Shown here one piece after another: positions 8,012 through 61,243 of a DNA stretch of 64,000 bases. Each line of letters starts with the position of its first letter. Position 1 is the stretch's first letter. Under the pieces are notes generated by a model, which was not told where the DNA came from, made no database searches, and was given only the letters and a program-made list of their open reading frames with translations. Source of the DNA: an uncultured Planctomycetota bacterium (GTDB taxonomy: Bacteria; Planctomycetota; Uabimicrobiia; Uabimicrobiales; JABWCH01); contig CAZPDM010000013.1 of NCBI GenBank assembly GCA_964585305.1, forward strand, positions 1 through 64,000. The letters are read 5' to 3'. A program made the position numbers and the translations under genes.

Positions 8012-10069
8012 ATGAAAAGATTGAGCATAGCTCTCATAGCATTATTGATACTTGTTAGTTTTCTAACTGCACAAGTAAAATGGGTTTCTGTTGATGGCGT
8101 TACCAAAAAACCTGCGCCAATTCAAGTCAAACTCTTAAATGCTACTGCTGAAGAAATTAAATTTGAAGTAACCGTTCCTGGTTATATTGAACGCAAAGTT
8201 GTATTGCCAGATGGCAAAGAAGCTGTAATGATCCACATTCCAGAAACAGTTTGCACAATGGAACAAGGATTTCCCATGCTTCCTTCTTTTGCCAAACCAA
8301 TCAAACTTGCAGATCGTTGCGAAGCTGAATTGAAACTTTTAGGGAAAGAAGAAGCTGAATTCAAATTGAGCTTACCAGTAGTCCCTTCTAAAGGTCATTT
8401 CACTCGTGATATTCCTGAAGCATCTGTTCCTTTTGCTTTTGGACCAGTCTATAAACAAGACGTATTCTGGCCAGCAGAAAAAGATCAATTCAAACTTGGC
8501 AAATCTTTCTTATTGCGCAACGTACATGGTGCAGTTTTCACCATGTTGCCAATTCGTGCCAACCATGTTCAAATGAAACTTCAAGTTGTCAGCAAAGCTA
8601 CTTTTGCTATCGTATGCAAAGAAGATGGCTTAATGATGGCAACCACTCGTACTCCTCAAATTCCTAGCAGAACTTACCAAAATTTAACTAGCAATTTTAT
8701 GGGTTATGAAGAACCTATGCCACTTCGTGGTGATGTTCCTTCTGAAAACTTGAAAAAACTAGTTGTTGTTACTCCTAGCAAATTCGCTAGTACTATTTCC
8801 TCTTGGGTAAATTGGAAAAAACAATGCGGCTATACTGTAACAGTTAAAGAAGTCGCAGATGGTGTAACAGCCAGTACTATCAAATCCTACTTACAAGGCC
8901 TTTATGATAATACCGACACCCGTTTCGGCTATGTTGTATTGATTGGCGATGCCTCCTACAATTCCAATTTTGAAGTTGCACAACCCATGCCAAGTTTCAA
9001 AGGAAGTATGGAAGGTGCTGCTGCTGATCGCGTTTATGTACGCTTAGCTGGTGCTGACAATTATCCTGATGCATTCATTTCCCGCATTTCTGCTACCACT
9101 GAAACTGAAATTACAAACCAACTTACCAAAATTATGGAATATGAAAAAGGTACTTATGCTACTGGATCATGGCTTAATACTGGTATTACCATTGCCAGTA
9201 ACCAAGGCAGTCCTACTGACTATGAACGCGCCAATTGGATTATCAATGGCGGCGGCACTGGACAAAAAGTACCTATCGTAACCGGTGGTCTTTCTAAATT
9301 CGGTTATAGCTTCCCAACAGAAAACAAAATCTATGATCCAACCGCTTCCGCAGCTAAAGTAACCGCAGCAGTCAACACTGGTGCTGGAATTATTTGCTAC
9401 ATTGGTCATGGTAGCGATACTTCTTGGGGCACTACTGGCTTCAGCGTATCCAATGTTAATGCTCTAACTAATGGTGGAAAACTACCTGTAATTTGGAGCG
9501 TAGCTTGCGTTAATGGTAACTTCTTAAAAGTTGGAACTTGCTTCGCCGAAGGCTGGCTACGTAAAGCTAATGGCGGTGCAGTTGCTATGGAAGCTGCTTC
9601 TACCAATGAATCTTGGGTACCTCCTTGCGATAAACAAGCCGCAACAATCAACGCCATCATCAACAAAAAATACAGCACTTTTGGTGCTTTGGAATGTGAA
9701 GGTGTAGTTGCTGGTTTGAATAACTGGAGTTCTACCAATAGCAGCGAAGGTAACAAAATGGCCGAACAATGCCATCTATTTGGCGATTGCACAATGATAG
9801 TTCGCACCAAAGCCGCGACAGCTCTTCAAGTATCCAAAGAACGCGGTCTAGACAATAACATCGTTTTCAATGTTATGACCGAAGAACGCTCTGTTGCAGA
9901 TGCAACCGTTACCGTCTATAACCAAGACTTCAGCATTATGGTCAGTGGCGAAACTTCTGAAGATGGTACAGTCAACATCATTCTACCAGAAGAAGCCGCA
10001 AACGCTGAACTATTCTACACTGTAGTTGGTCAAGACGTTATTGCTATTGACAATGAAAAATTAAACTAA
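8012..10069 (+). CDS. Secreted cysteine peptidase, family C25 (gingipain-like)
   Basis: Signal peptide. Catalytic His context YIGHGSDTSWG and Cys context IWSVACVNGNF, as in gingipain-family C25 peptidases. AGGAGA RBS. Confidence 0.7.
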   Translation: MKRLSIALIALLILVSFLTAQVKWVSVDGVTKKPAPIQVKLLNATAEEIKFEVTVPGYIERKVVLPDGKEAVMIHIPETVCTMEQGFPMLPSFAKPIKLADRCEAELKLLGKEEAEFKLSLPVVPSKGHFTRDIPEASVPFAFGPVYKQDVFWPAEKDQFKLGKSFLLRNVHGAVFTMLPIRANHVQMKLQVVSKATFAIVCKEDGLMMATTRTPQIPSRTYQNLTSNFMGYEEPMPLRGDVPSENLKKLVVVTPSKFASTISSWVNWKKQCGYTVTVKEVADGVTASTIKSYLQGLYDNTDTRFGYVVLIGDASYNSNFEVAQPMPSFKGSMEGAAADRVYVRLAGADNYPDAFISRISATTETEITNQLTKIMEYEKGTYATGSWLNTGITIASNQGSPTDYERANWIINGGGTGQKVPIVTGGLSKFGYSFPTENKIYDPTASAAKVTAAVNTGAGIICYIGHGSDTSWGTTGFSVSNVNALTNGGKLPVIWSVACVNGNFLKVGTCFAEGWLRKANGGAVAMEAASTNESWVPPCDKQAATINAIINKKYSTFGALECEGVVAGLNNWSSTNSSEGNKMAEQCHLFGDCTMIVRTKAATALQVSKERGLDNNIVFNVMTEERSVADATVTVYNQDFSIMVSGETSEDGTVNIILPEEAANAELFYTVVGQDVIAIDNEKLN

Positions 10070-44684: not shown

Positions 44685-44818
44685 CTCTGCTCTAAACAGT
44701 AGATGAAAATTTCCTCAAACTCTTAACAAGTTAAAATTAATAGATATAGAAACAGTGATAGACTGTTGTAAATGATTCAAATAATTTGATTTTGTAACAT
44801 ATCGAAAGGAGTATTTCC

Positions 44819-45424
44819 TTGAAAAATACCCTTGTAATTTTATTAATATTTTTGTTTTCGAATACAATTTTTGCCGCAAGCATTTCTTTGCAAGTAATTT
44901 CCGCTGGATATGATACCAGTGGCTATCCTGGTGGAGTTGCACGACTTTATGTAGATGGCGTAGATTACTCCAAAAACGGTCGTGGTATCAATATCGTAGT
45001 CATTGATAAAACTTATGGAAATGTTGTAAGCAGCGTAGTTTTTGACACATATTTAAGCACAACTGCCTCAGCAAATATGGTAACATTTATCAATAATATT
45101 GCTGCTGGAAATATTGTAATTGCAGCAGTAAAAGATGAAGCGACAGACAATATCACTTCTACTGCTATAAACGCTTTGAAAACCCTTGGTGCAAGTAGTT
45201 TTGCTCCAGGGTACCGCGGTTCTTGGGCTTTTATTGGCGAAAAGGGATTAGCAGCAGGGGCAGGATTACAAGATACCGATCCTCGTTATGGTGCAGCTAG
45301 TACCTTATCAAAAACAGTTGAACTTATGATTCCTGAACCTGGTACATATTTTTTATGTTTAATTAGTTTAGTTTTTGTAACATATCATAGAAAAAAAAGA
45401 AATTTATTTGTCATAAAGGAGTAA
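44819..45424 (+). CDS. ILEI/FAM3-like domain protein with C-terminal PEP-CTERM sorting signal, paralog 1
   Basis: GRGINIVVIDKTYGNVVSSVVFDTY...LGASSF.PGYRGSWAFIGEKG matches the ILEI/FAM3 domain pattern. C-terminus IPEPGTYFLCLISLVFVTYHRKKRN is PEP + TM + basic tail. TTG start with an AAGGAG RBS. Confidence 0.6.
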   Translation: MKNTLVILLIFLFSNTIFAASISLQVISAGYDTSGYPGGVARLYVDGVDYSKNGRGINIVVIDKTYGNVVSSVVFDTYLSTTASANMVTFINNIAAGNIVIAAVKDEATDNITSTAINALKTLGASSFAPGYRGSWAFIGEKGLAAGAGLQDTDPRYGAASTLSKTVELMIPEPGTYFLCLISLVFVTYHRKKRNLFVIKE

Positions 45425-45427
45425 CCA

Positions 45428-46024
45428 TTGAAAAATATTATGATATTTTTATTTCTTTTATGCTTCTTTATAACTCCATCCTTTGCTATTAGTATTTCTG
45501 TTGAAGTTCTTTCAGCCGGTTGGGAAGATCCTGGTTTTTATCCAGGTGGTGGAGTTAGAATTTCTGTCAATGGTGTTGACTATGCTGCACACGGTAGAGG
45601 TGTAAATATTGTAGTCATCGACCAATTTTCTGGCAATGTATTAAATAGTGTTGTCTTTGATACCTGCGGAAACACTTCAGCTTCGGCTAGTATGGCTAAT
45701 TATATTAGCAATATTGCGACAGGAAGAATTGTTCTTGCTGCTGTACAAGATGAAGCCTATCAATATATGTATAGCGATGGTGTAAATGCTTTGAAAACAC
45801 TTGGAGCTAGCAGTTTTAACCAAGGCTATCGCGGTTCTTGGGCTCTTATTGGAGCTAAAGGTTTGGCCACAGGAACGGGGTTGCAAGTTAGTGCAGTACG
45901 TGGCACTGGGCCAAGTACCTTATCTAAAATTATAGAATTAAATACTCCTGAACCTGGTACATATTTTTTATGTTTAATTAGTTTAATTTTTGTAACATAT
46001 CATAGAAAAAAAAGAAATAAATAG
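45428..46024 (+). CDS. ILEI/FAM3-like domain protein with C-terminal PEP-CTERM sorting signal, paralog 2
   Basis: About 55% identical to paralog 1 over the ILEI-like domain. The last 72 nt (PEP-CTERM) are identical but for one base. TTG start with the same RBS context. Confidence 0.6.
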   Translation: MKNIMIFLFLLCFFITPSFAISISVEVLSAGWEDPGFYPGGGVRISVNGVDYAAHGRGVNIVVIDQFSGNVLNSVVFDTCGNTSASASMANYISNIATGRIVLAAVQDEAYQYMYSDGVNALKTLGASSFNQGYRGSWALIGAKGLATGTGLQVSAVRGTGPSTLSKIIELNTPEPGTYFLCLISLIFVTYHRKKRNK

Positions 46025-46062: not shown

Positions 46063-47475
46063 ATGGTAAATTTTTTTTCTTGTTTGCTATTTATATTTAT
46101 TTTTTGTCCAATATTTACTTTTTCTCAACAAATAAATAAATCCAACAACATCGCCGAAAGCAATAATAAAGAAGTTAATCAAGTTATTATACGCGATCCA
46201 TTTTTAGAAGATTTACAAAAACGATCTTTTTTGTATTTTTGGGAATTAGCAAATACAGAAAACGGTTTGATTCCAGATCGTTATCCTACGCCATCATTTT
46301 GTAGCATTGCTGCAGTAGGATTTGGCCTGGCAGCATATATTGTTGGAGTAGAACGTCAATGGATAACTAGAGAGCAAGCTGCGGAAAGAGTACTCATTAC
46401 ACTAAAATTTTTTTTTAGATCATCACAAAATTCCAATCCAATAGCTACAGGCTATCAAGGATTTTATTATCATTTTTTGGATATGCAAACTGGGCTAAGG
46501 TATAAAAATGTAGAACTTTCTACTATTGATACTACACTATTTATAGCTGGCGTACGTTGTGTTGCAAATTATTTTAATGACAGTACTAATCCTATTGAAA
46601 TGGAAGTCCAAAAACTTGCAGAAAACCTTTACCATCGCATCAATTGGCAATGGTTTTATCAAAAAAATAATACTATAAGTATGGGATGGCATCCTGAAAG
46701 TGGTTTTATACAAAGTAATTGGCACGGATATAATGAAGCAATGATTTTGTATATTCTTGCTTTAGGTTCAACAACATATCCAATTTCAAATGTTTCATGG
46801 GAAACCTGGTGTAAAACATACACTTGGGAAAATTTTTCTGGCTATGCTCATATTAATTTTTCTCCTTTATTTGGCCATCAATATTCACATATTTTTATTG
46901 ATTTTAATGGCATTCAAGATAAGTACATGCGTGAAAAGAAAAGCGATTATTTTGAAAATTCCAGACAAGCAACATATTCCAATCGTCAGTATTGCATAGA
47001 TAATCCCAATGATTTCGTTGGATATAGCAAAGATATTTGGGGACTTACTGCATCTGATGGTCCAAATAAAACAGCATTATATAAAGATAAACTTGTAAAT
47101 TTTAATGGATATTGGGCGCGTGGTGCAAGTATTCTGGAAATTTGTGATGATGGAACAATTGCACCAACTGCTGCAGGTGGGGCAATTCCTTTTGCGCCGG
47201 AAATTTGTATTCCTTGTTTAAAGAGCATCCATGCCAAATATAAAGATCGTATTTGGGGAAAATATGGCTTTTATGATGCCTTTAATTTAAGTTGTAGTAA
47301 AGAAGGGTGGTTTGATCCTGATTATTTAGGTATTGATGTTGGCCCAATCGTTTTGATGATTGAAAATTATTATACCGGGTTAATTTGGGAATTGATGAAA
47401 AAAGATCGCTATATTGTTGCAGGTTTAAAAAAGGCTGGCTTTCAGGGAGGCTGGCTAGAAGATGAAAAAAAATAA
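46063..47475 (+). CDS. Secreted (alpha/alpha)6-type glycoside hydrolase-like protein (DUF3131/GH144-like or glycoamylase-like)
   Basis: Signal peptide. Overall resemblance to DUF3131/GH144 beta-1,2-glucanase-type proteins, from memory only, so low confidence. Confidence 0.35.
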   Translation: MVNFFSCLLFIFIFCPIFTFSQQINKSNNIAESNNKEVNQVIIRDPFLEDLQKRSFLYFWELANTENGLIPDRYPTPSFCSIAAVGFGLAAYIVGVERQWITREQAAERVLITLKFFFRSSQNSNPIATGYQGFYYHFLDMQTGLRYKNVELSTIDTTLFIAGVRCVANYFNDSTNPIEMEVQKLAENLYHRINWQWFYQKNNTISMGWHPESGFIQSNWHGYNEAMILYILALGSTTYPISNVSWETWCKTYTWENFSGYAHINFSPLFGHQYSHIFIDFNGIQDKYMREKKSDYFENSRQATYSNRQYCIDNPNDFVGYSKDIWGLTASDGPNKTALYKDKLVNFNGYWARGASILEICDDGTIAPTAAGGAIPFAPEICIPCLKSIHAKYKDRIWGKYGFYDAFNLSCSKEGWFDPDYLGIDVGPIVLMIENYYTGLIWELMKKDRYIVAGLKKAGFQGGWLEDEKK

Positions 47476-47506: not shown

Positions 47507-49180
47507 ATGCCCACATATCAGTATATTTATACTATGAAGGGAGTCAGTAAAAATTATCCAAATAAAACTGTACTCCAAAATATTTGGCTTTCGTTTTATC
47601 CAGGAGCTAAAATAGGCGTTATTGGTGATAATGGAGCAGGAAAAAGTACACTTTTGCGTATTATGGCAGGAATAGATAAAGAATTTGACGGCGAAGCACA
47701 ACCTGCTACTGGCATTAAAATTGGCTACCTTCCACAAGAGCCACAATTGAACATGGAAAAGAATGTTCTGGAAAATATTATGGAAGGTGTAGCAGAAAAA
47801 CAAGCTATTTTGCAACGTTTTGAAGAAGTTGGAAATCTTATGGGCGAACCAATTAGTGAAGAAGAAATGAACAAGCTCGTAGATGAACAGGCTAAACTTC
47901 AAGAAACAATTGACGCTCAAAATCTTTGGGATTTAGAACGAGAAATAGAAATTGCTATGGATGCCTTGAGATGCCCTTCAGGTGATAGCAAAGTTTCGAC
48001 CTTATCTGGCGGCGAAAAACGTCGTGTTGCAATTTGCCGTTTATTACTTTCCCACCCTGATATGCTACTTTTAGATGAACCAACAAATCATCTTGACGCA
48101 GAGTCTGTGGCATGGCTGGAAAGATTTTTACGAGAATATACCAGCACCGTAATTATTGTTACACATGATCGTTATTTCCTGGATAATGTAACAGAATGGA
48201 TACTAGAACTTGAAAATGGCCGTGGAATTCCCTGGAAAGCAAACTATTCTTCTTGGCTTGCACAAAAAGAAGAAAAACTTCGTGAATCCGAAAAGCAAAG
48301 CTCAGATCGTAGTAAACAAATTGAACGCGAATTGGAATGGGTTCGCCAATCTCCAAGAGGGCGTCAAGCAAAAAGCAAAGCTCGTATTAAAGCCTATGAA
48401 GATTTGCTACGACAAAATCAGGATAAGTTGCCAGGACCAGCTCAAATTGTCATTCCAGCCGGCCCACGTTTAGGAAACTTAGTTGTTCAAGGTGAATCTT
48501 TAACAAAATGGTATGGTGATAGAATTATCTTTGAGAACTTCAATTTTTCTTTACCTCCAGGCGGTATCATTGGTGTAATTGGACCGAATGGCGCAGGGAA
48601 AACTACGCTTATCCGTTTGATTACTGGCCAAGAAAAACCTGATCGAGGAAGTTTGCGAATAGGCGATACAGTAAAGATGGCATACTTGGATCAATCTCGT
48701 GAAACATTACATGATGAAAATAGTGTTTGGCAAGAAATTTCTGATGGACAAGATGAAATCAAATTAGGAACTCGTACAGTAAAAAGTCGCGCATATTGTG
48801 CATCATTTAACTTTCGCGGGCCAGACCAACAAAAATTAGTAGGGAAGTTATCTGGTGGCGAACGGAACCGTTTACATCTTGCTAAGATGATGAAAGAAGG
48901 AGCAAATTTGATTTTGCTTGATGAACCAACAAACGATCTTGATATTGAGACCTTGCGCACTTTGGAAGATGCTGTCTTAGAGTTTGCAGGATGTGCAGTT
49001 GTTGTTAGCCATGATCGTTGGTTTTTAGATCGTATTGCTACGCATATTATTGCTTTTGAAGGCGAAAGCCAAGTTCGTTGGTTTGAAGGCAACTATGCTT
49101 TATATGAAGAAGATCTCAAACGGAGCAAAGGAGAAGGCTATCAACCTCATCGAATCAAATATAGAAAGTTATTAAGATAA
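47507..49180 (+). CDS. ettA: ABC-F ATPase, energy-dependent translational throttle EttA
   Basis: N-terminal YIYTMKGVSKNYPNKTVLQNIWLSFYPGAKIGVIGDNGAGKSTLLRIMAG closely matches EttA. Two NBDs, 557 aa, no TM domain. Confidence 0.85.
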   Translation: MPTYQYIYTMKGVSKNYPNKTVLQNIWLSFYPGAKIGVIGDNGAGKSTLLRIMAGIDKEFDGEAQPATGIKIGYLPQEPQLNMEKNVLENIMEGVAEKQAILQRFEEVGNLMGEPISEEEMNKLVDEQAKLQETIDAQNLWDLEREIEIAMDALRCPSGDSKVSTLSGGEKRRVAICRLLLSHPDMLLLDEPTNHLDAESVAWLERFLREYTSTVIIVTHDRYFLDNVTEWILELENGRGIPWKANYSSWLAQKEEKLRESEKQSSDRSKQIERELEWVRQSPRGRQAKSKARIKAYEDLLRQNQDKLPGPAQIVIPAGPRLGNLVVQGESLTKWYGDRIIFENFNFSLPPGGIIGVIGPNGAGKTTLIRLITGQEKPDRGSLRIGDTVKMAYLDQSRETLHDENSVWQEISDGQDEIKLGTRTVKSRAYCASFNFRGPDQQKLVGKLSGGERNRLHLAKMMKEGANLILLDEPTNDLDIETLRTLEDAVLEFAGCAVVVSHDRWFLDRIATHIIAFEGESQVRWFEGNYALYEEDLKRSKGEGYQPHRIKYRKLLR

Positions 49181-52657: not shown

Positions 52658-52733
52658 TCCCCGGTAGCTCAACAGGCAGAGCGCGTGGCTGTTAACCACT
52701 AGGTTATAGGTTCAAGTCCTTTCCGGGGAGCCA
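52658..52733 (+). tRNA. tRNA-Asn (anticodon GTT), CCA encoded
   Basis: Manual cloverleaf: 7-bp acceptor stem TCCCCGG/CCGGGGA, D-arm GCTC..GAGC, anticodon loop CTGTTAA, T-loop TTCAAGT, discriminator G, CCA. Confidence 0.85.
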
Positions 52734-52740
52734 TCTATTT

Positions 52741-52813
52741 TCCCCGGTAGCTCAACAGGCAGAGCGCGTGGCTGTTAACCACTAGGTTATAGGTTCAAGT
52801 CCTTTCCGGGGAG
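52741..52813 (+). tRNA. tRNA-Asn (anticodon GTT), second identical copy, 3' CCA not encoded (CTA follows the discriminator)
   Basis: Body sequence identical to the first copy, 7 nt downstream of it. Confidence 0.85.
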
Positions 52814-52827
52814 CTAGAAAAAAATAT

Positions 52828-59806: not shown

Positions 59807-59827
59807 AAATTATTGAATTTTTTAGAA

Positions 59828-61243
59828 ATGGAACCAGAAATAATGGTGTGTAAATTAAAAAAAGAACCAAATACTCAAAATAAATCGAAAAGTCATCTAA
59901 GTACAGCTAACGCTAATGCTATTTTACAAAGTATTTCTGATGGTGTGTTTACTGTTGATACCAATTGGAAAGTAACTTCTTTCAATCGAGCTGCTGAAGA
60001 AATTACAGGAATTTCACCAAGCGAAGCTATAGGAAAATATTGTTTTGAAGTCTTTCGATCTAGTATGTGTGAAACAGAATGTGCATTGCGTAAGACATTA
60101 GAAACAGGAAATCCTATTGTTAATAAATCATGTTTTATTATTGACGCTCAAGGAAACCATATTCCAATTAGTGTATCTACAGCTGTACTTAAAGATGATG
60201 AAGGAAATATAATTGGAGGAGCAGAGACATTTCGTGATCTAAGCGATGTAGAAGACTTACGTAAAAAGGTAGAAGGTATTTTTAAAATTGGAGATATTAT
60301 TAGTCGTAGTCATACTATGAAAAAGGTATCTGTTATTTTACCTTCGATTGCAGCTAGTGATAGTACTGTTCTTATTCAAGGGGAAACTGGAACTGGAAAA
60401 GAACTTTTGGCTCGCGCAATTCATTATTCAGGAAGACGTAAGGAAAAACCTTTTATTGCCATAAATTGTGGAGCATTACCAGATACTCTTTTAGAATCCG
60501 AGCTATTTGGTTATAAAGCAGGAGCATTTACTGGAGCAAACAAAGATAAGCCTGGACGTTTTGCCTTAGCAGAAGGCGGAACATTATTTCTGGATGAAAT
60601 TGGAGAAATCAGCCAAATGCTTCAAGTAAAGTTGCTTCGAGTTCTGCAAGAAAAAAATTATGATCCACTTGGTGCAACTCAATCTGCAAAAGCTGATGTA
60701 AGGATTGTTGCCGCGACTCATAAAGATATTTATTCTTTAGTTAAACAAGGCCTTTTTAGAGAAGACTTGTTTTATCGTATTCACGTAATTAGAATTGATC
60801 TTCCTCCACTAAGAGAAAGAAAAGAAGATATTCCTTTATTACTTGATCATTTTATTGCAAAATTTAATAAAATCCAACGTAAAAATATTGCAGGGATAAC
60901 TCAAGAATCTCTTGCTTTGCTTATGTCTTACAATTGGCCTGGTAATATTAGAGAATTAGAAAATTTTATTGAACGGGCATTTATTCTTTGTTCTGAGGGA
61001 ATGATTGAACCAAAACATTTGTCAGAAAATTTTAGTTACTCGGAGACTAAAGTTCTAGTCTCACCATTTCATATTTCCGCTATTAAGCAAACGATTGAAG
61101 CAGAGGCAATTTTAGAAGCTTTAAAAAGAAATAATTTCAATCGTTTGGCGGCTGCAAAAGAATTGGGAATTCATAAAAGTACGTTTTTTCGTAAAATTAA
61201 ATCATTAGGAATATCTCTTCCTTCTAAACAAGAAGAAAACTAA
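59828..61243 (+). CDS. Sigma-54-dependent transcriptional activator (PAS sensor + AAA+ sigma-54 interaction + Fis-type HTH; no receiver domain)
   Basis: PAS-like N-terminus. Walker A GETGTGKE, GAFTGA motif (GYKAGAFTGA), Walker B LFLDEIGE. C-terminal HTH (NRLAAAKELGIHKSTFFRKIK). The start is uncertain (TTG at 59813 or ATG at 59828). Confidence 0.85.
   Translation: MEPEIMVCKLKKEPNTQNKSKSHLSTANANAILQSISDGVFTVDTNWKVTSFNRAAEEITGISPSEAIGKYCFEVFRSSMCETECALRKTLETGNPIVNKSCFIIDAQGNHIPISVSTAVLKDDEGNIIGGAETFRDLSDVEDLRKKVEGIFKIGDIISRSHTMKKVSVILPSIAASDSTVLIQGETGTGKELLARAIHYSGRRKEKPFIAINCGALPDTLLESELFGYKAGAFTGANKDKPGRFALAEGGTLFLDEIGEISQMLQVKLLRVLQEKNYDPLGATQSAKADVRIVAATHKDIYSLVKQGLFREDLFYRIHVIRIDLPPLRERKEDIPLLLDHFIAKFNKIQRKNIAGITQESLALLMSYNWPGNIRELENFIERAFILCSEGMIEPKHLSENFSYSETKVLVSPFHISAIKQTIEAEAILEALKRNNFNRLAAAKELGIHKSTFFRKIKSLGISLPSKQEEN

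What the first reader, a model, noticed from the sequence alone, without database searches (positions are those of the whole stretch)
44819..46024. Two tandem ILEI/FAM3-like domain proteins carrying PEP-CTERM anchors; near-identical 72-nt C-terminal ends
The roughly 150-aa core (GRGINIVVID...VVFDTY...LGASSF.PGYRGSWAFIGEKG) matches the ILEI/FAM3 (PANDER-like) domain pattern known from animal secreted FAM3 cytokine-like proteins and the POMGnT1 stem domain. Here it is fused to a PEP-CTERM exosortase sorting signal. The paralogs are about 55% identical over the domain, but the last 72 nt (PEP-TM-RKKRN) differ at one base, pointing to gene conversion or strong constraint on the sorting tag. Both use TTG starts behind the same AAGGAGTA RBS. 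No exosortase gene is in the window, so the sorting machinery is encoded elsewhere.
Basis: partly seen in the sequence, partly recalled or inferred. Interest (0 to 1): 0.55.

Follow-up and report, generated by a model that had tools for sequence, protein, structure and literature searches.

The report
Tandem bacterial ILEI lectin-like PEP-CTERM proteins
Two neighbouring genes in a Planctomycetota-like bacterium each encode a small secreted protein with the sugar-binding fold of the animal FAM3/POMGnT1-stem family, joined to a bacterial PEP-CTERM sorting tail that gene conversion has kept almost identical between the two; the finding is real and tidy but fairly ordinary.

Summary
ORFs 44819-45424 (201 aa) and 45428-46024 (198 aa) are 62% identical paralogs. 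Each consists of a signal peptide, one ILEI/GG-type lectin domain and a PEP-CTERM-type tail.

- **Domain:** Pfam PF15711 scores E = 4e-26 and 1.7e-23. The AF2 model has pLDDT 88. The best PDB match is the POMGnT1 stem (target TM-score 0.82, 30% identity).
- **Sugar-binding residues:** The POMGnT1 triad Arg129/Asp179/Arg207 is conserved as R55/D106/R133.
- **Tail:** TIGR02595 scores are 16.0 and 15.1 against a cutoff of 16.
- **72-nt 3' ends:** They differ at one base. Synonymous sites in the core are saturated (41 of 96 codons identical, 41.2 expected). In the tail all 23 of 23 are identical (P about 1e-8). This is localized gene conversion, not protein-level constraint.

About ten further ILEI + PEP-CTERM clusters exist in metagenomes and MAGs, including Desulfobacter and a Brocadiia MAG. 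NCBI already names one "interleukin-like EMT inducer domain-containing protein". The fold is also common in phage tail fibres.

No exosortase lies in the window, and the rest of the genome could not be reached.

Most likely role: exosortase-sorted lectins of the cell surface or exopolysaccharide matrix. This is a new member of known kinds, of modest interest.

The parts
44806..44813 (+). Shine-Dalgarno-like AAGGAGTA, 5 nt upstream of the TTG start of gene 1
   Evidence: Read directly from the sequence.
44819..45424 (+). Gene 1: 201-aa protein made of a signal peptide, an ILEI/GG-type lectin domain and a PEP-CTERM tail
   Evidence: ORF list. PF15711 E = 4e-26. TIGR02595 scores 16.0 bits, equal to the cutoff. 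NCBI calls the same 201-aa product (P0154).
44819..44875 (+). Predicted Sec signal peptide of gene 1 (aa 1-19, MKNTLVILLIFLFSNTIFA|AS)
   Evidence: Read from the sequence. AF2 gives an N-terminal helix with low pLDDT. Homologs carry equivalent N-termini. The cleavage site is inferred.
44876..45328 (+). ILEI/GG lectin-like domain of gene 1 (aa 20-170), with the putative sugar-binding triad R55, D106, R133
   Evidence: AF2 pLDDT is above 92 over the core. Foldseek matches the POMGnT1 stem 5ggj at E = 5e-11, target TM-score 0.82, 30% identity. The sequence profile scores E = 1.2e-18 against 5ggj. The triad is mapped with a constant offset of 86 to Arg129/Asp179/Arg207.
45329..45403 (+). PEP-CTERM-type tail of gene 1 (aa 171-195, IPEPGTYFLCLISLVFVTYHRKKRN)
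   Evidence: TIGR02595 matches aa 171-194. AF2 predicts helix 176-200.
45332..45403 (+). 72-nt repeat, copy 1 (homogenized tract)
45416..45423 (+). Shine-Dalgarno-like AAGGAGTA of gene 2, which overlaps the stop codon of gene 1
   Evidence: Read directly from the sequence.
45428..46024 (+). Gene 2: 198-aa paralog with the same architecture
   Evidence: ORF list. PF15711 E = 1.7e-23. TIGR02595 scores 15.1 bits. 62% identical to gene 1. NCBI starts it at the ATG 4 codons downstream (P0002, 194 aa), but that ATG lies 18 nt from the RBS.
45947..46018 (+). 72-nt repeat, copy 2 (1 mismatch, G to A, V to I)
46063..47475 (+). Downstream neighbour, 38 nt after gene 2: a secreted GH144 endo-beta-1,2-glucanase homolog. 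It may be co-transcribed; a functional link is not shown.
   Evidence: PF10091 E = 5e-82. E = 4.7e-138 to XcSGL 8XUL and 7.5e-55 to 5gzh (PMC12102758). No terminator-like site lies between the genes. The linkage is not conserved in related loci.

Best explanation
These are two old tandem paralogs. Each encodes a small secreted protein that is a single ILEI/GG-type lectin domain, of the POMGnT1-stem/FAM3 fold, followed directly by a PEP-CTERM sorting signal.

Proposed mechanism:
1. The N-terminal signal peptide takes the protein across the inner membrane.
2. The C-terminal helix and the HRKKRN cluster hold it in the membrane.
3. An exosortase encoded elsewhere in the genome cleaves near the PEP motif and passes the domain to the cell surface or the exopolysaccharide matrix.
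4. There the conserved Arg-Asp-Arg pocket binds a beta-linked sugar (GlcNAc, Glc or Man type).

The two sorting tails are kept almost identical by short-tract gene conversion, so both cargoes keep matching the same sortase.

What is shown: the domain identity, the fold, triad conservation, the tail architecture, and homogenization of the tail. What is inferred: exosortase processing, the surface or matrix location, and the sugar ligand.
For: Domain:
- PF15711 scores 91.8 and 83.3 bits.
- The profile hits the POMGnT1 stem at E = 1.2e-18, TMEM2 at 1.5e-15 and FAM3A/B/C at 1e-9 to 1e-11.
- The AF2 model has pLDDT 88.1.
- Foldseek's top 21 PDB hits are all POMGnT1 stem, FAM3A/B/C or TMEM2.

Ligand site:
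- R55/D106/R133 align with POMGnT1 Arg129/Asp179/Arg207. These are the residues reported to bind beta-linked GlcNAc (PMC9802357; PMC9437275).
- The triad is intact in both paralogs and in 10 of the other 12 full-length family members.

Tail:
- TIGR02595 scores sit at or just under the cutoff.
- 7 of 13 family members hit TIGR02595, the best at 2.9e-6.
- Homologs carry textbook tails such as VPEPTSLALLGLGGLVLCLKRRKRRR.
- In related loci the ILEI gene sits beside other PEP-CTERM cargo genes.
- PEP-CTERM/EpsH is documented in Planctomycetes, and tails are known to be more alike within a species than between species (PMC1569441).

Gene conversion:
- In the core, 41 of 96 identical residues use the same codon, against 41.2 expected at random.
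- In the tail, 23 of 23 do, against 11.5 expected, P about 1e-8.
- Core identity between the paralogs is 60%. That is no higher than to proteins of other genomes (58-59%).
- Tail identity is 92% within the window and at most 38% to anything else.
- Paralog monophyly has only 12% bootstrap support.
Against: - No exosortase is in the 64-kb window, and the rest of the genome could not be reached.
- Both PF07589 scores and one TIGR02595 score fall below threshold.
- The tail helix lacks the Gly-rich LLGLGL pattern of classical PEP-CTERM.
- Only two PEP-CTERM candidates were found in the window.
- No ligand is known for any bacterial member.
- One family member (P0057) lacks the triad altogether.
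- Distances within the triad could not be measured on the model, because its coordinates are not exposed.
Confidence: 0.62

Rival explanations
1. The tail is only a C-terminal membrane anchor, either a vestigial or an unprocessed PEP-CTERM. On this reading the proteins are inner-membrane-tethered lectins facing the periplasm. They would work with the adjacent GH144 beta-1,2-glucanase on periplasmic beta-1,2-glucans.
For: - HMM scores for PEP-CTERM are marginal.
- No exosortase is in the window.
- The GH144 homolog starts 38 nt downstream on the same strand with no terminator-like site between.
- The POMGnT1 stem recognizes a beta-1,2-linked sugar and binds beta-Glc and beta-Man.
Against: - The GH144 linkage is absent from every related locus examined.
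- Homologs carry clear PEP-CTERM tails and cluster with other PEP-CTERM cargo.
- Active homogenization of the tail argues that its exact sequence matters.
Confidence: 0.2
2. The domain is not a lectin here. It mediates protein-protein contacts, as was first supposed for the FAM3 'cytokines', or has some other non-glycan role.
For: - FAM3 family functions remain unclear, according to PMC9802357.
- No bacterial member has been characterized; the literature search returned nothing.
Against: - The Arg-Asp-Arg sugar-binding triad is conserved.
- The closest solved relative is the carbohydrate-binding POMGnT1 stem, at 30% identity, rather than FAM3 at 17-18%.
- The same fold serves as a carbohydrate-binding module in phage receptor-binding proteins.
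Confidence: 0.12
3. The 72-nt identity reflects a nucleic-acid-level functional element, such as an RNA structure, a protein-binding site or a mobile mini-repeat. Alternatively it reflects a very recent duplication of the whole gene, rather than gene conversion.
For: A 14-nt piece of the repeat, TTTTGTAACATATC, recurs upstream of gene 1.
Against: - The repeat has no significant fold (z = -0.46 and +0.42).
- There is no Rfam match.
- There are no further copies in the window.
- A recent whole-gene duplication is excluded, because synonymous sites in the core are saturated.
Confidence: 0.04

Closest known systems
POMGnT1 stem domain (GG-type lectin / ILEI domain, PDB 5GGJ/5GGF)
   Same: The fold matches (target TM-score 0.82, rmsd 2.3-2.6 A, 30% identity). 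The profile scores E = 1.2e-18. The Arg129/Asp179/Arg207 sugar-binding triad is conserved. Like the stem, the domain has no disulfide framework.
   Different: Here the domain is a stand-alone secreted bacterial protein. In POMGnT1 it is the stem of a Golgi glycosyltransferase. The bacterial protein ends in a PEP-CTERM tail, and its ligand is unknown.
FAM3A/B/C/D (PANDER, ILEI) secreted animal proteins
   Same: Same Pfam family (PF15711). Same beta-beta-alpha fold (Foldseek E about 1e-9, target TM-score 0.65-0.74). Both are small secreted single-domain proteins with a signal peptide.
   Different: Identity is only 16-19%. The mature domain of protein 1 has no cysteine and that of protein 2 has one. 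FAM3 proteins are disulfide-bonded; this last point is from my own knowledge and was not tested here. The bacterial proteins carry a bacterial sorting tail.
PEP-CTERM/exosortase cargo proteins (TIGR02595; Haft 2006), e.g. the floc protein PepA
   Same: Signal peptide at the N-terminus. At the extreme C-terminus, a PEP motif, a transmembrane helix and a basic cluster. Tails are near-identical within a genome. Cargo genes cluster in relatives.
   Different: The cargo is a recognizable lectin domain. Typical PEP-CTERM proteins are low-homology sequences. No NCBIfam PEP-CTERM subfamily model covers these proteins. The sortase was not observed.
Uncharacterized bacterial ILEI + PEP-CTERM proteins, e.g. 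WP_319395458.1 (uncultured Desulfobacter), and those in Ca. Brocadiia MAG JABWCH010000137 and MAG CALKWO010000171
   Same: Same architecture of about 200 aa. Core identity is 42-58%.
   Different: Each of those is a single copy in the stretch of contig seen. The tandem pair with a homogenized tail occurs only in this window.
ILEI/GG domains of phage tail fibres and receptor-binding proteins (T4-like gp35, Bacillus and Streptococcus phage Tal/RBP CBM_1)
   Same: Same fold (BFVD Foldseek E down to 2e-10). A carbohydrate-binding role is proposed for them, with the conserved Arg/Asp.
   Different: There the domain is embedded in large multidomain virion proteins. Here it is a free sorted cell protein.

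Membership tests
ILEI / GG-type lectin domain (Pfam PF15711) | Score above the Pfam gathering threshold (27 bits) | tested here: met
   91.8 and 83.3 bits, over the full-length model 1-89/90.
ILEI / GG-type lectin domain (Pfam PF15711) | beta-beta-alpha three-layer fold of FAM3 and the POMGnT1 stem | tested here: met
   AF2 pLDDT 88. The top 21 Foldseek PDB hits are all POMGnT1 stem, FAM3A/B/C or TMEM2. Target TM-score is up to 0.82.
ILEI / GG-type lectin domain (Pfam PF15711) | Sugar-binding Arg/Asp/Arg (POMGnT1 R129, D179, R207) | tested here: met
   R55/D106/R133 align with a constant offset of 86 in 5ggj_A (residues from PMC9802357). Both paralogs and most homologs keep them. Actual binding was not tested.
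FAM3 cytokine-like subfamily proper | Conserved disulfide-forming cysteines, and closest similarity to FAM3A-D | tested here: not met
   The mature domain has 0 cysteines in protein 1 and 1 in protein 2. Identity to FAM3 is 16-19%, against 30% to the POMGnT1 stem. That FAM3 proteins are disulfide-bonded is my own knowledge.
PEP-CTERM sorting domain (TIGR02595 / PF07589) | HMM score at or above the curated cutoff | tested here: inconclusive
   TIGR02595 gives 16.0 bits (equal to the cutoff of 16) for protein 1 and 15.1 bits for protein 2. PF07589 gives 17.4 and 15.9 bits against 20.7. 7 of 13 family members match TIGR02595, the best at 2.9e-6.
PEP-CTERM sorting domain (TIGR02595 / PF07589) | PEP motif, hydrophobic helix and basic cluster at the extreme C-terminus, plus an N-terminal signal peptide | tested here: met
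   The tails read IPEPGTYFLCLISLVFVTYHRKKRN and TPEPGTYFLCLISLIFVTYHRKKRN, ending 6 and 1 residues before the stop codon. AF2 predicts helix 176-200. The signal-peptide-like N-termini were read directly.
PEP-CTERM sorting domain (TIGR02595 / PF07589) | An exosortase (EpsH/Xrt) is encoded in the same genome | not testable with these tools
   None among the window's ORFs of 120 aa or more. The window's own contig is not on record. The single genome scan did not return it.
PEP-CTERM sorting domain (TIGR02595 / PF07589) | Several PEP-CTERM proteins per genome (median 8 in Haft 2006) | not testable with these tools
   Only these two were found in 64 kb. Related loci carry 2-3 adjacent PEP-CTERM genes.
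GH144 endo-beta-1,2-glucanase (the downstream neighbour, 46063-47475) | Full-length similarity to characterized GH144 enzymes | tested here: met
   E = 4.7e-138 to XcSGL 8XUL and 7.5e-55 to CpSGL 5gzh. PF10091 matches. Catalytic residues were not checked.

The most novel reading that the evidence does not exclude
The pair and the adjacent GH144 gene form one module for beta-1,2-linked glycans. In it, exosortase-delivered GG-lectins would capture beta-1,2-glucan or a beta-1,2-linked surface glycan, much as the POMGnT1 stem reads GlcNAc-beta1,2-Man. More broadly, such stand-alone bacterial GG-lectins would be the prokaryotic source of the animal FAM3/POMGnT1-stem domain.
Probability: 0.1. Interest if true: 0.55.

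Novelty: new member of a known kind. Interest (0 to 1): 0.3.

Why it matters
- The finding gives a concrete, small, probably soluble bacterial representative of the FAM3/POMGnT1-stem lectin fold. It may be easier to study than the animal proteins, whose molecular function is still debated.
- It adds a recognizable carbohydrate-binding cargo to the PEP-CTERM/exosortase system, whose cargoes are mostly featureless. That fits the idea that exosortase cargo decorates or cross-links exopolysaccharide.
- The contrast between a saturated core and a homogenized tail is a clean small example of short-tract gene conversion maintaining a sorting signal.
- None of this overturns current understanding.

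Tried and rejected
- **Finding the window's own record.** Look-ups by exact protein found nothing on record. The organism and the rest of the genome, including any exosortase, therefore stayed out of reach. Taxon was inferred only from EttA similarity.
- **Genome scan with the 13-sequence alignment.** It had no conserved stretch to search with, so it was repeated with 6 sequences.
- **Word-indexed homolog search.** It returned only 3-5 proteins. The exhaustive profile search was needed to find the family.
- **afdb50 fold library.** It was not available.
- **Kuwabara 2016 paper.** It is not held. The triad residues are cited through two later papers.
- **An RNA or DNA element in the 72-mer.** There is no fold signal and no Rfam hit, so this was rejected.
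- **A decayed third gene copy upstream of gene 1.** A similarity of about 33 nt exists. Gapless identity over 104 nt (43-46) lies within the window-wide background (maximum 50), so an extended relic was rejected.
- **A conserved operon.** The neighbours differ in every related locus, so this was rejected.
- **A sigma-54 or sigma-70 promoter upstream.** The scan found no more promoter-like sites than shuffles give, and no TGGCAC-like site was seen by eye.
- **Resolving the age of the duplication by NJ bootstrap.** The tree is unresolved.

Full report
**Observation.** The window holds two adjacent + strand ORFs, 44819-45424 (201 aa) and 45428-46024 (198 aa), both opening with TTG. AAGGAGTA lies 5 nt upstream of the first TTG and 4 nt upstream of the second. 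The stop codon of gene 1 sits inside the second AAGGAGTA. In gene 1 the first in-frame ATG is at codon 87, so the TTG start is needed to include the signal peptide. NCBI's own call for this product is also 201 aa (P0154). For gene 2, NCBI starts at an ATG four codons downstream (P0002, 194 aa). That ATG lies 18 nt from the RBS, and both proteins would otherwise begin MKN, so the TTG start is the better call. This last point is inference.

The proteins are 62% identical over 197 residues.

**Domain identity.**
- Both proteins match Pfam ILEI PF15711 end to end, at 91.8 and 83.3 bits against a gathering score of 27.
- A 4-sequence profile finds the POMGnT1 stem domain (5ggj, E = 1.2e-18). It also finds the TMEM2 ectodomain (1.5e-15) and FAM3B, FAM3C and FAM3A (1e-9 to 1e-11) among solved structures.
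- An AlphaFold2 model of protein 1, built on a 13-sequence alignment, has mean pLDDT 88.1, with values above 92 across residues 21-170.
- Foldseek against the PDB returns only POMGnT1 stem, FAM3A/B/C and TMEM2 above noise. The best match is 5ggj, with target TM-score 0.82, rmsd 2.3-2.6 A and 30% identity. FAM3 proteins match at 16-19% identity.
- The mature protein is therefore one ILEI/GG-type domain of about 150 aa. It is closer to the POMGnT1-stem type than to the FAM3 type.

**Ligand site.**
- The POMGnT1 stem binds beta-linked GlcNAc through Arg129, Asp179 and Arg207 (PMC9802357). PMC9437275 reports that it also binds beta-Glc and beta-Man.
- In the HMMER alignment these three residues map onto R55 (GRGIN), D106 (VKDEA) and R133 (GYRGSW) of protein 1. 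The offset is a constant 86 in chain 5ggj_A.
- Both paralogs keep the triad, as do 10 of the other 12 full-length members of the bacterial family.
- Carbohydrate binding is thus a well-founded inference, but it was not shown.

**C-terminal tag.**
- The tails read IPEPGTYFLCLISLVFVTYHRKKRN and TPEPGTYFLCLISLIFVTYHRKKRN. Each has a PEP motif, a hydrophobic helix (AF2 helix 176-200) and a basic cluster, at the extreme C-terminus.
- HMM support is marginal. TIGR02595 gives 16.0 bits (exactly the cutoff) and 15.1 bits. PF07589 gives 17.4 and 15.9 bits against 20.7.
- Family context settles the matter. The exhaustive profile search found 3766 cluster representatives with the domain. About ten of them are proteins of roughly 200 aa with the same architecture of signal peptide, ILEI domain and tail.
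- Several of these carry textbook tails, for example VPEPTSLALLGLGGLVLCLKRRKRRR and VPEPTSVILLGLGLMGVCARRKQNS. 7 of 13 aligned members hit TIGR02595, the best at 2.9e-6.
- No specific NCBIfam PEP-CTERM subfamily covers them.

**The 72-nt identity.**
- Positions 45332-45403 and 45947-46018 differ at one base. No other copy exists in the window, and none appeared in shuffles.
- Identity drops abruptly on both sides of the tract.
- Codon usage was taken from 26 window genes. In the core, 96 aligned identical residues (excluding Met and Trp) use the same codon 41 times, against 41.2 expected if synonymous sites were random. Synonymous sites there are saturated and the duplication is old.
- In the tail, 23 of 23 identical residues use the same codon, against 11.5 expected (P about 1e-8).
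- At the protein level the paralog cores are 60% identical. That is no closer than win1 to P0025 (58%) or win2 to L010 (59%). The tails are 92% identical to each other and at most 38% identical to any homolog.
- A neighbour-joining bootstrap gives only 12% support for the paralogs being sisters.
- The tract has no unusual RNA fold (z = -0.46 and +0.42) and no Rfam match.
- The best reading is short-tract gene conversion, or an equivalent recent exchange, confined to the sorting signal. Protein-level constraint alone cannot explain untouched synonymous sites.
- This fits the published pattern that PEP-CTERM regions are much more alike within a species than between species (PMC1569441).

**Context and organism.**
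- The window averages about 34% GC, and the two genes are compositionally ordinary.
- The EttA homolog at 47507-49180 is closest, among named proteins, to a Planctomycetota bacterium (71%) and to Candidatus Uabimicrobium amorphum (69%).
- The nearest genomic ILEI + PEP-CTERM homologs are in a Candidatus Brocadiia MAG and in an unclassified MAG, at 50-52% identity.
- PEP-CTERM/EpsH is documented in Planctomycetes.
- Upstream of the pair lies a periplasmic substrate-binding protein (PF01497).
- Downstream, 38 nt after gene 2 and with no terminator-like site between, lies a signal-peptide-bearing GH144 endo-beta-1,2-glucanase homolog. It scores E = 4.7e-138 to XcSGL 8XUL.
- This neighbourhood is not conserved. 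In L002 and L003 the ILEI gene is flanked by other PEP-CTERM proteins and a beta-lactamase-like hydrolase. In L007 it is flanked by PKD and CBM96 PEP-CTERM proteins.
- What recurs across loci is clustering with other PEP-CTERM cargo, not any particular enzyme.
- No exosortase was detected among the window's ORFs of 120 aa or more. The rest of the genome was unreachable.

**How it most likely works.**
1. The protein is exported by the Sec system.
2. The C-terminal helix and basic cluster retain it transiently in the membrane.
3. An exosortase cleaves at the PEP motif.
4. The lectin domain is delivered to the cell surface or the exopolysaccharide matrix, where the Arg-Asp-Arg pocket binds a beta-linked sugar.

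Steps 1 and 2 rest on sequence features. Step 3 rests on family membership and the literature. The binding in step 4 rests on homology. The main rival is a merely membrane-tethered periplasmic lectin that works with the GH144 enzyme. It is not excluded, but the non-conserved linkage and the family's clear PEP-CTERM tails make it less likely.

**Comparison with what is known, and novelty.**
- The ILEI/GG domain is not confined to animals. NCBI names a Desulfobacter homolog "interleukin-like EMT inducer domain-containing protein".
- The best-scoring hits in the profile search are metagenomic proteins with 5-6 ILEI repeats. The domain also occurs in an RHS-repeat protein and in a MopE/LTD protein.
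- The fold is frequent in phage tail-fibre and receptor-binding proteins and in giant viruses. In phages it is interpreted as a carbohydrate-binding module.
- No paper in the held library mentions PF15711 or an ILEI domain together with PEP-CTERM. The subfamily is uncharacterized, but it is a combination of two known parts.

**Verdict.** The finding is real and was correctly interpreted. It is a new member of known kinds. The added value is a clean demonstration of gene conversion restricted to the sorting tag.

Noticed in passing
window 44772-44803, compared with 45355-45386 and 45970-46001: The 14-mer TTTTGTAACATATC sits just upstream of gene 1's RBS and again inside both PEP-CTERM tails. 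The local alignment of about 33 nt is matched by only 0.25% of shuffles. In frame, the upstream copy reads FDFVTYRKE, against the tails' FVTYHRKKRN. It may be a duplication junction or a relic of an earlier copy. Similarity does not extend further.
   Followed up: partly
window 44777-44789: A 13-nt palindrome, TCAAATAATTTGA, lies in the 134-nt intergenic region upstream of gene 1. It could be an operator, or chance in AT-rich DNA.
   Followed up: no
window 46063-47475 (+): A secreted GH144 endo-beta-1,2-glucanase homolog (E = 4.7e-138 to Xanthomonas XcSGL, PDB 8XUL) lies 38 nt downstream of the pair.
   Followed up: partly
window 10189-12006 and 12111-13919 (-): A second tandem paralog pair: two PMT_2 (ArnT/PMT-like glycosyltransferase) membrane proteins of 605 and 602 aa.
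   Followed up: no
window 52658-52733 and 52741-52814 (+): Two tandem tRNA-Asn(GTT) genes, 7 nt apart.
   Followed up: no
window 8012-10069 (+): A gingipain-like C25 peptidase with its propeptide domain lies in the GC-richest 2-kb block of the window (0.413, against about 0.33 elsewhere). This may indicate horizontal acquisition.
   Followed up: no
window 14730-18938 (-): A 1402-aa protein whose C-terminal half is packed with WD40 repeats. A kinase-WD40 protein of similar size lies near the ILEI gene in the unrelated locus L007.
   Followed up: no
window 59813-61243 (+): A sigma-54-dependent activator with PAS, AAA+ and HTH_8 domains. PEP-CTERM genes are sigma-54-regulated in some bacteria (the title of PMC9850573). 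No -24/-12 promoter was seen upstream of the ILEI pair.
   Followed up: no
L002 3651-4421 and 4358-5173; L003 9208-9885; L007 159-1118 and 2900-3535: In related loci the ILEI + PEP-CTERM gene is flanked by other small PEP-CTERM cargo proteins, including two Pfam-annotated as PKD and CBM96 in L007. This suggests islands of exosortase cargo with glycan-binding modules.
   Followed up: partly
proteins P0004-P0016: The strongest matches in the 1.84-billion-protein library are metagenomic proteins of about 1000 aa with 5-6 tandem ILEI domains and no other Pfam domain. Their organisms are unknown.
   Followed up: partly
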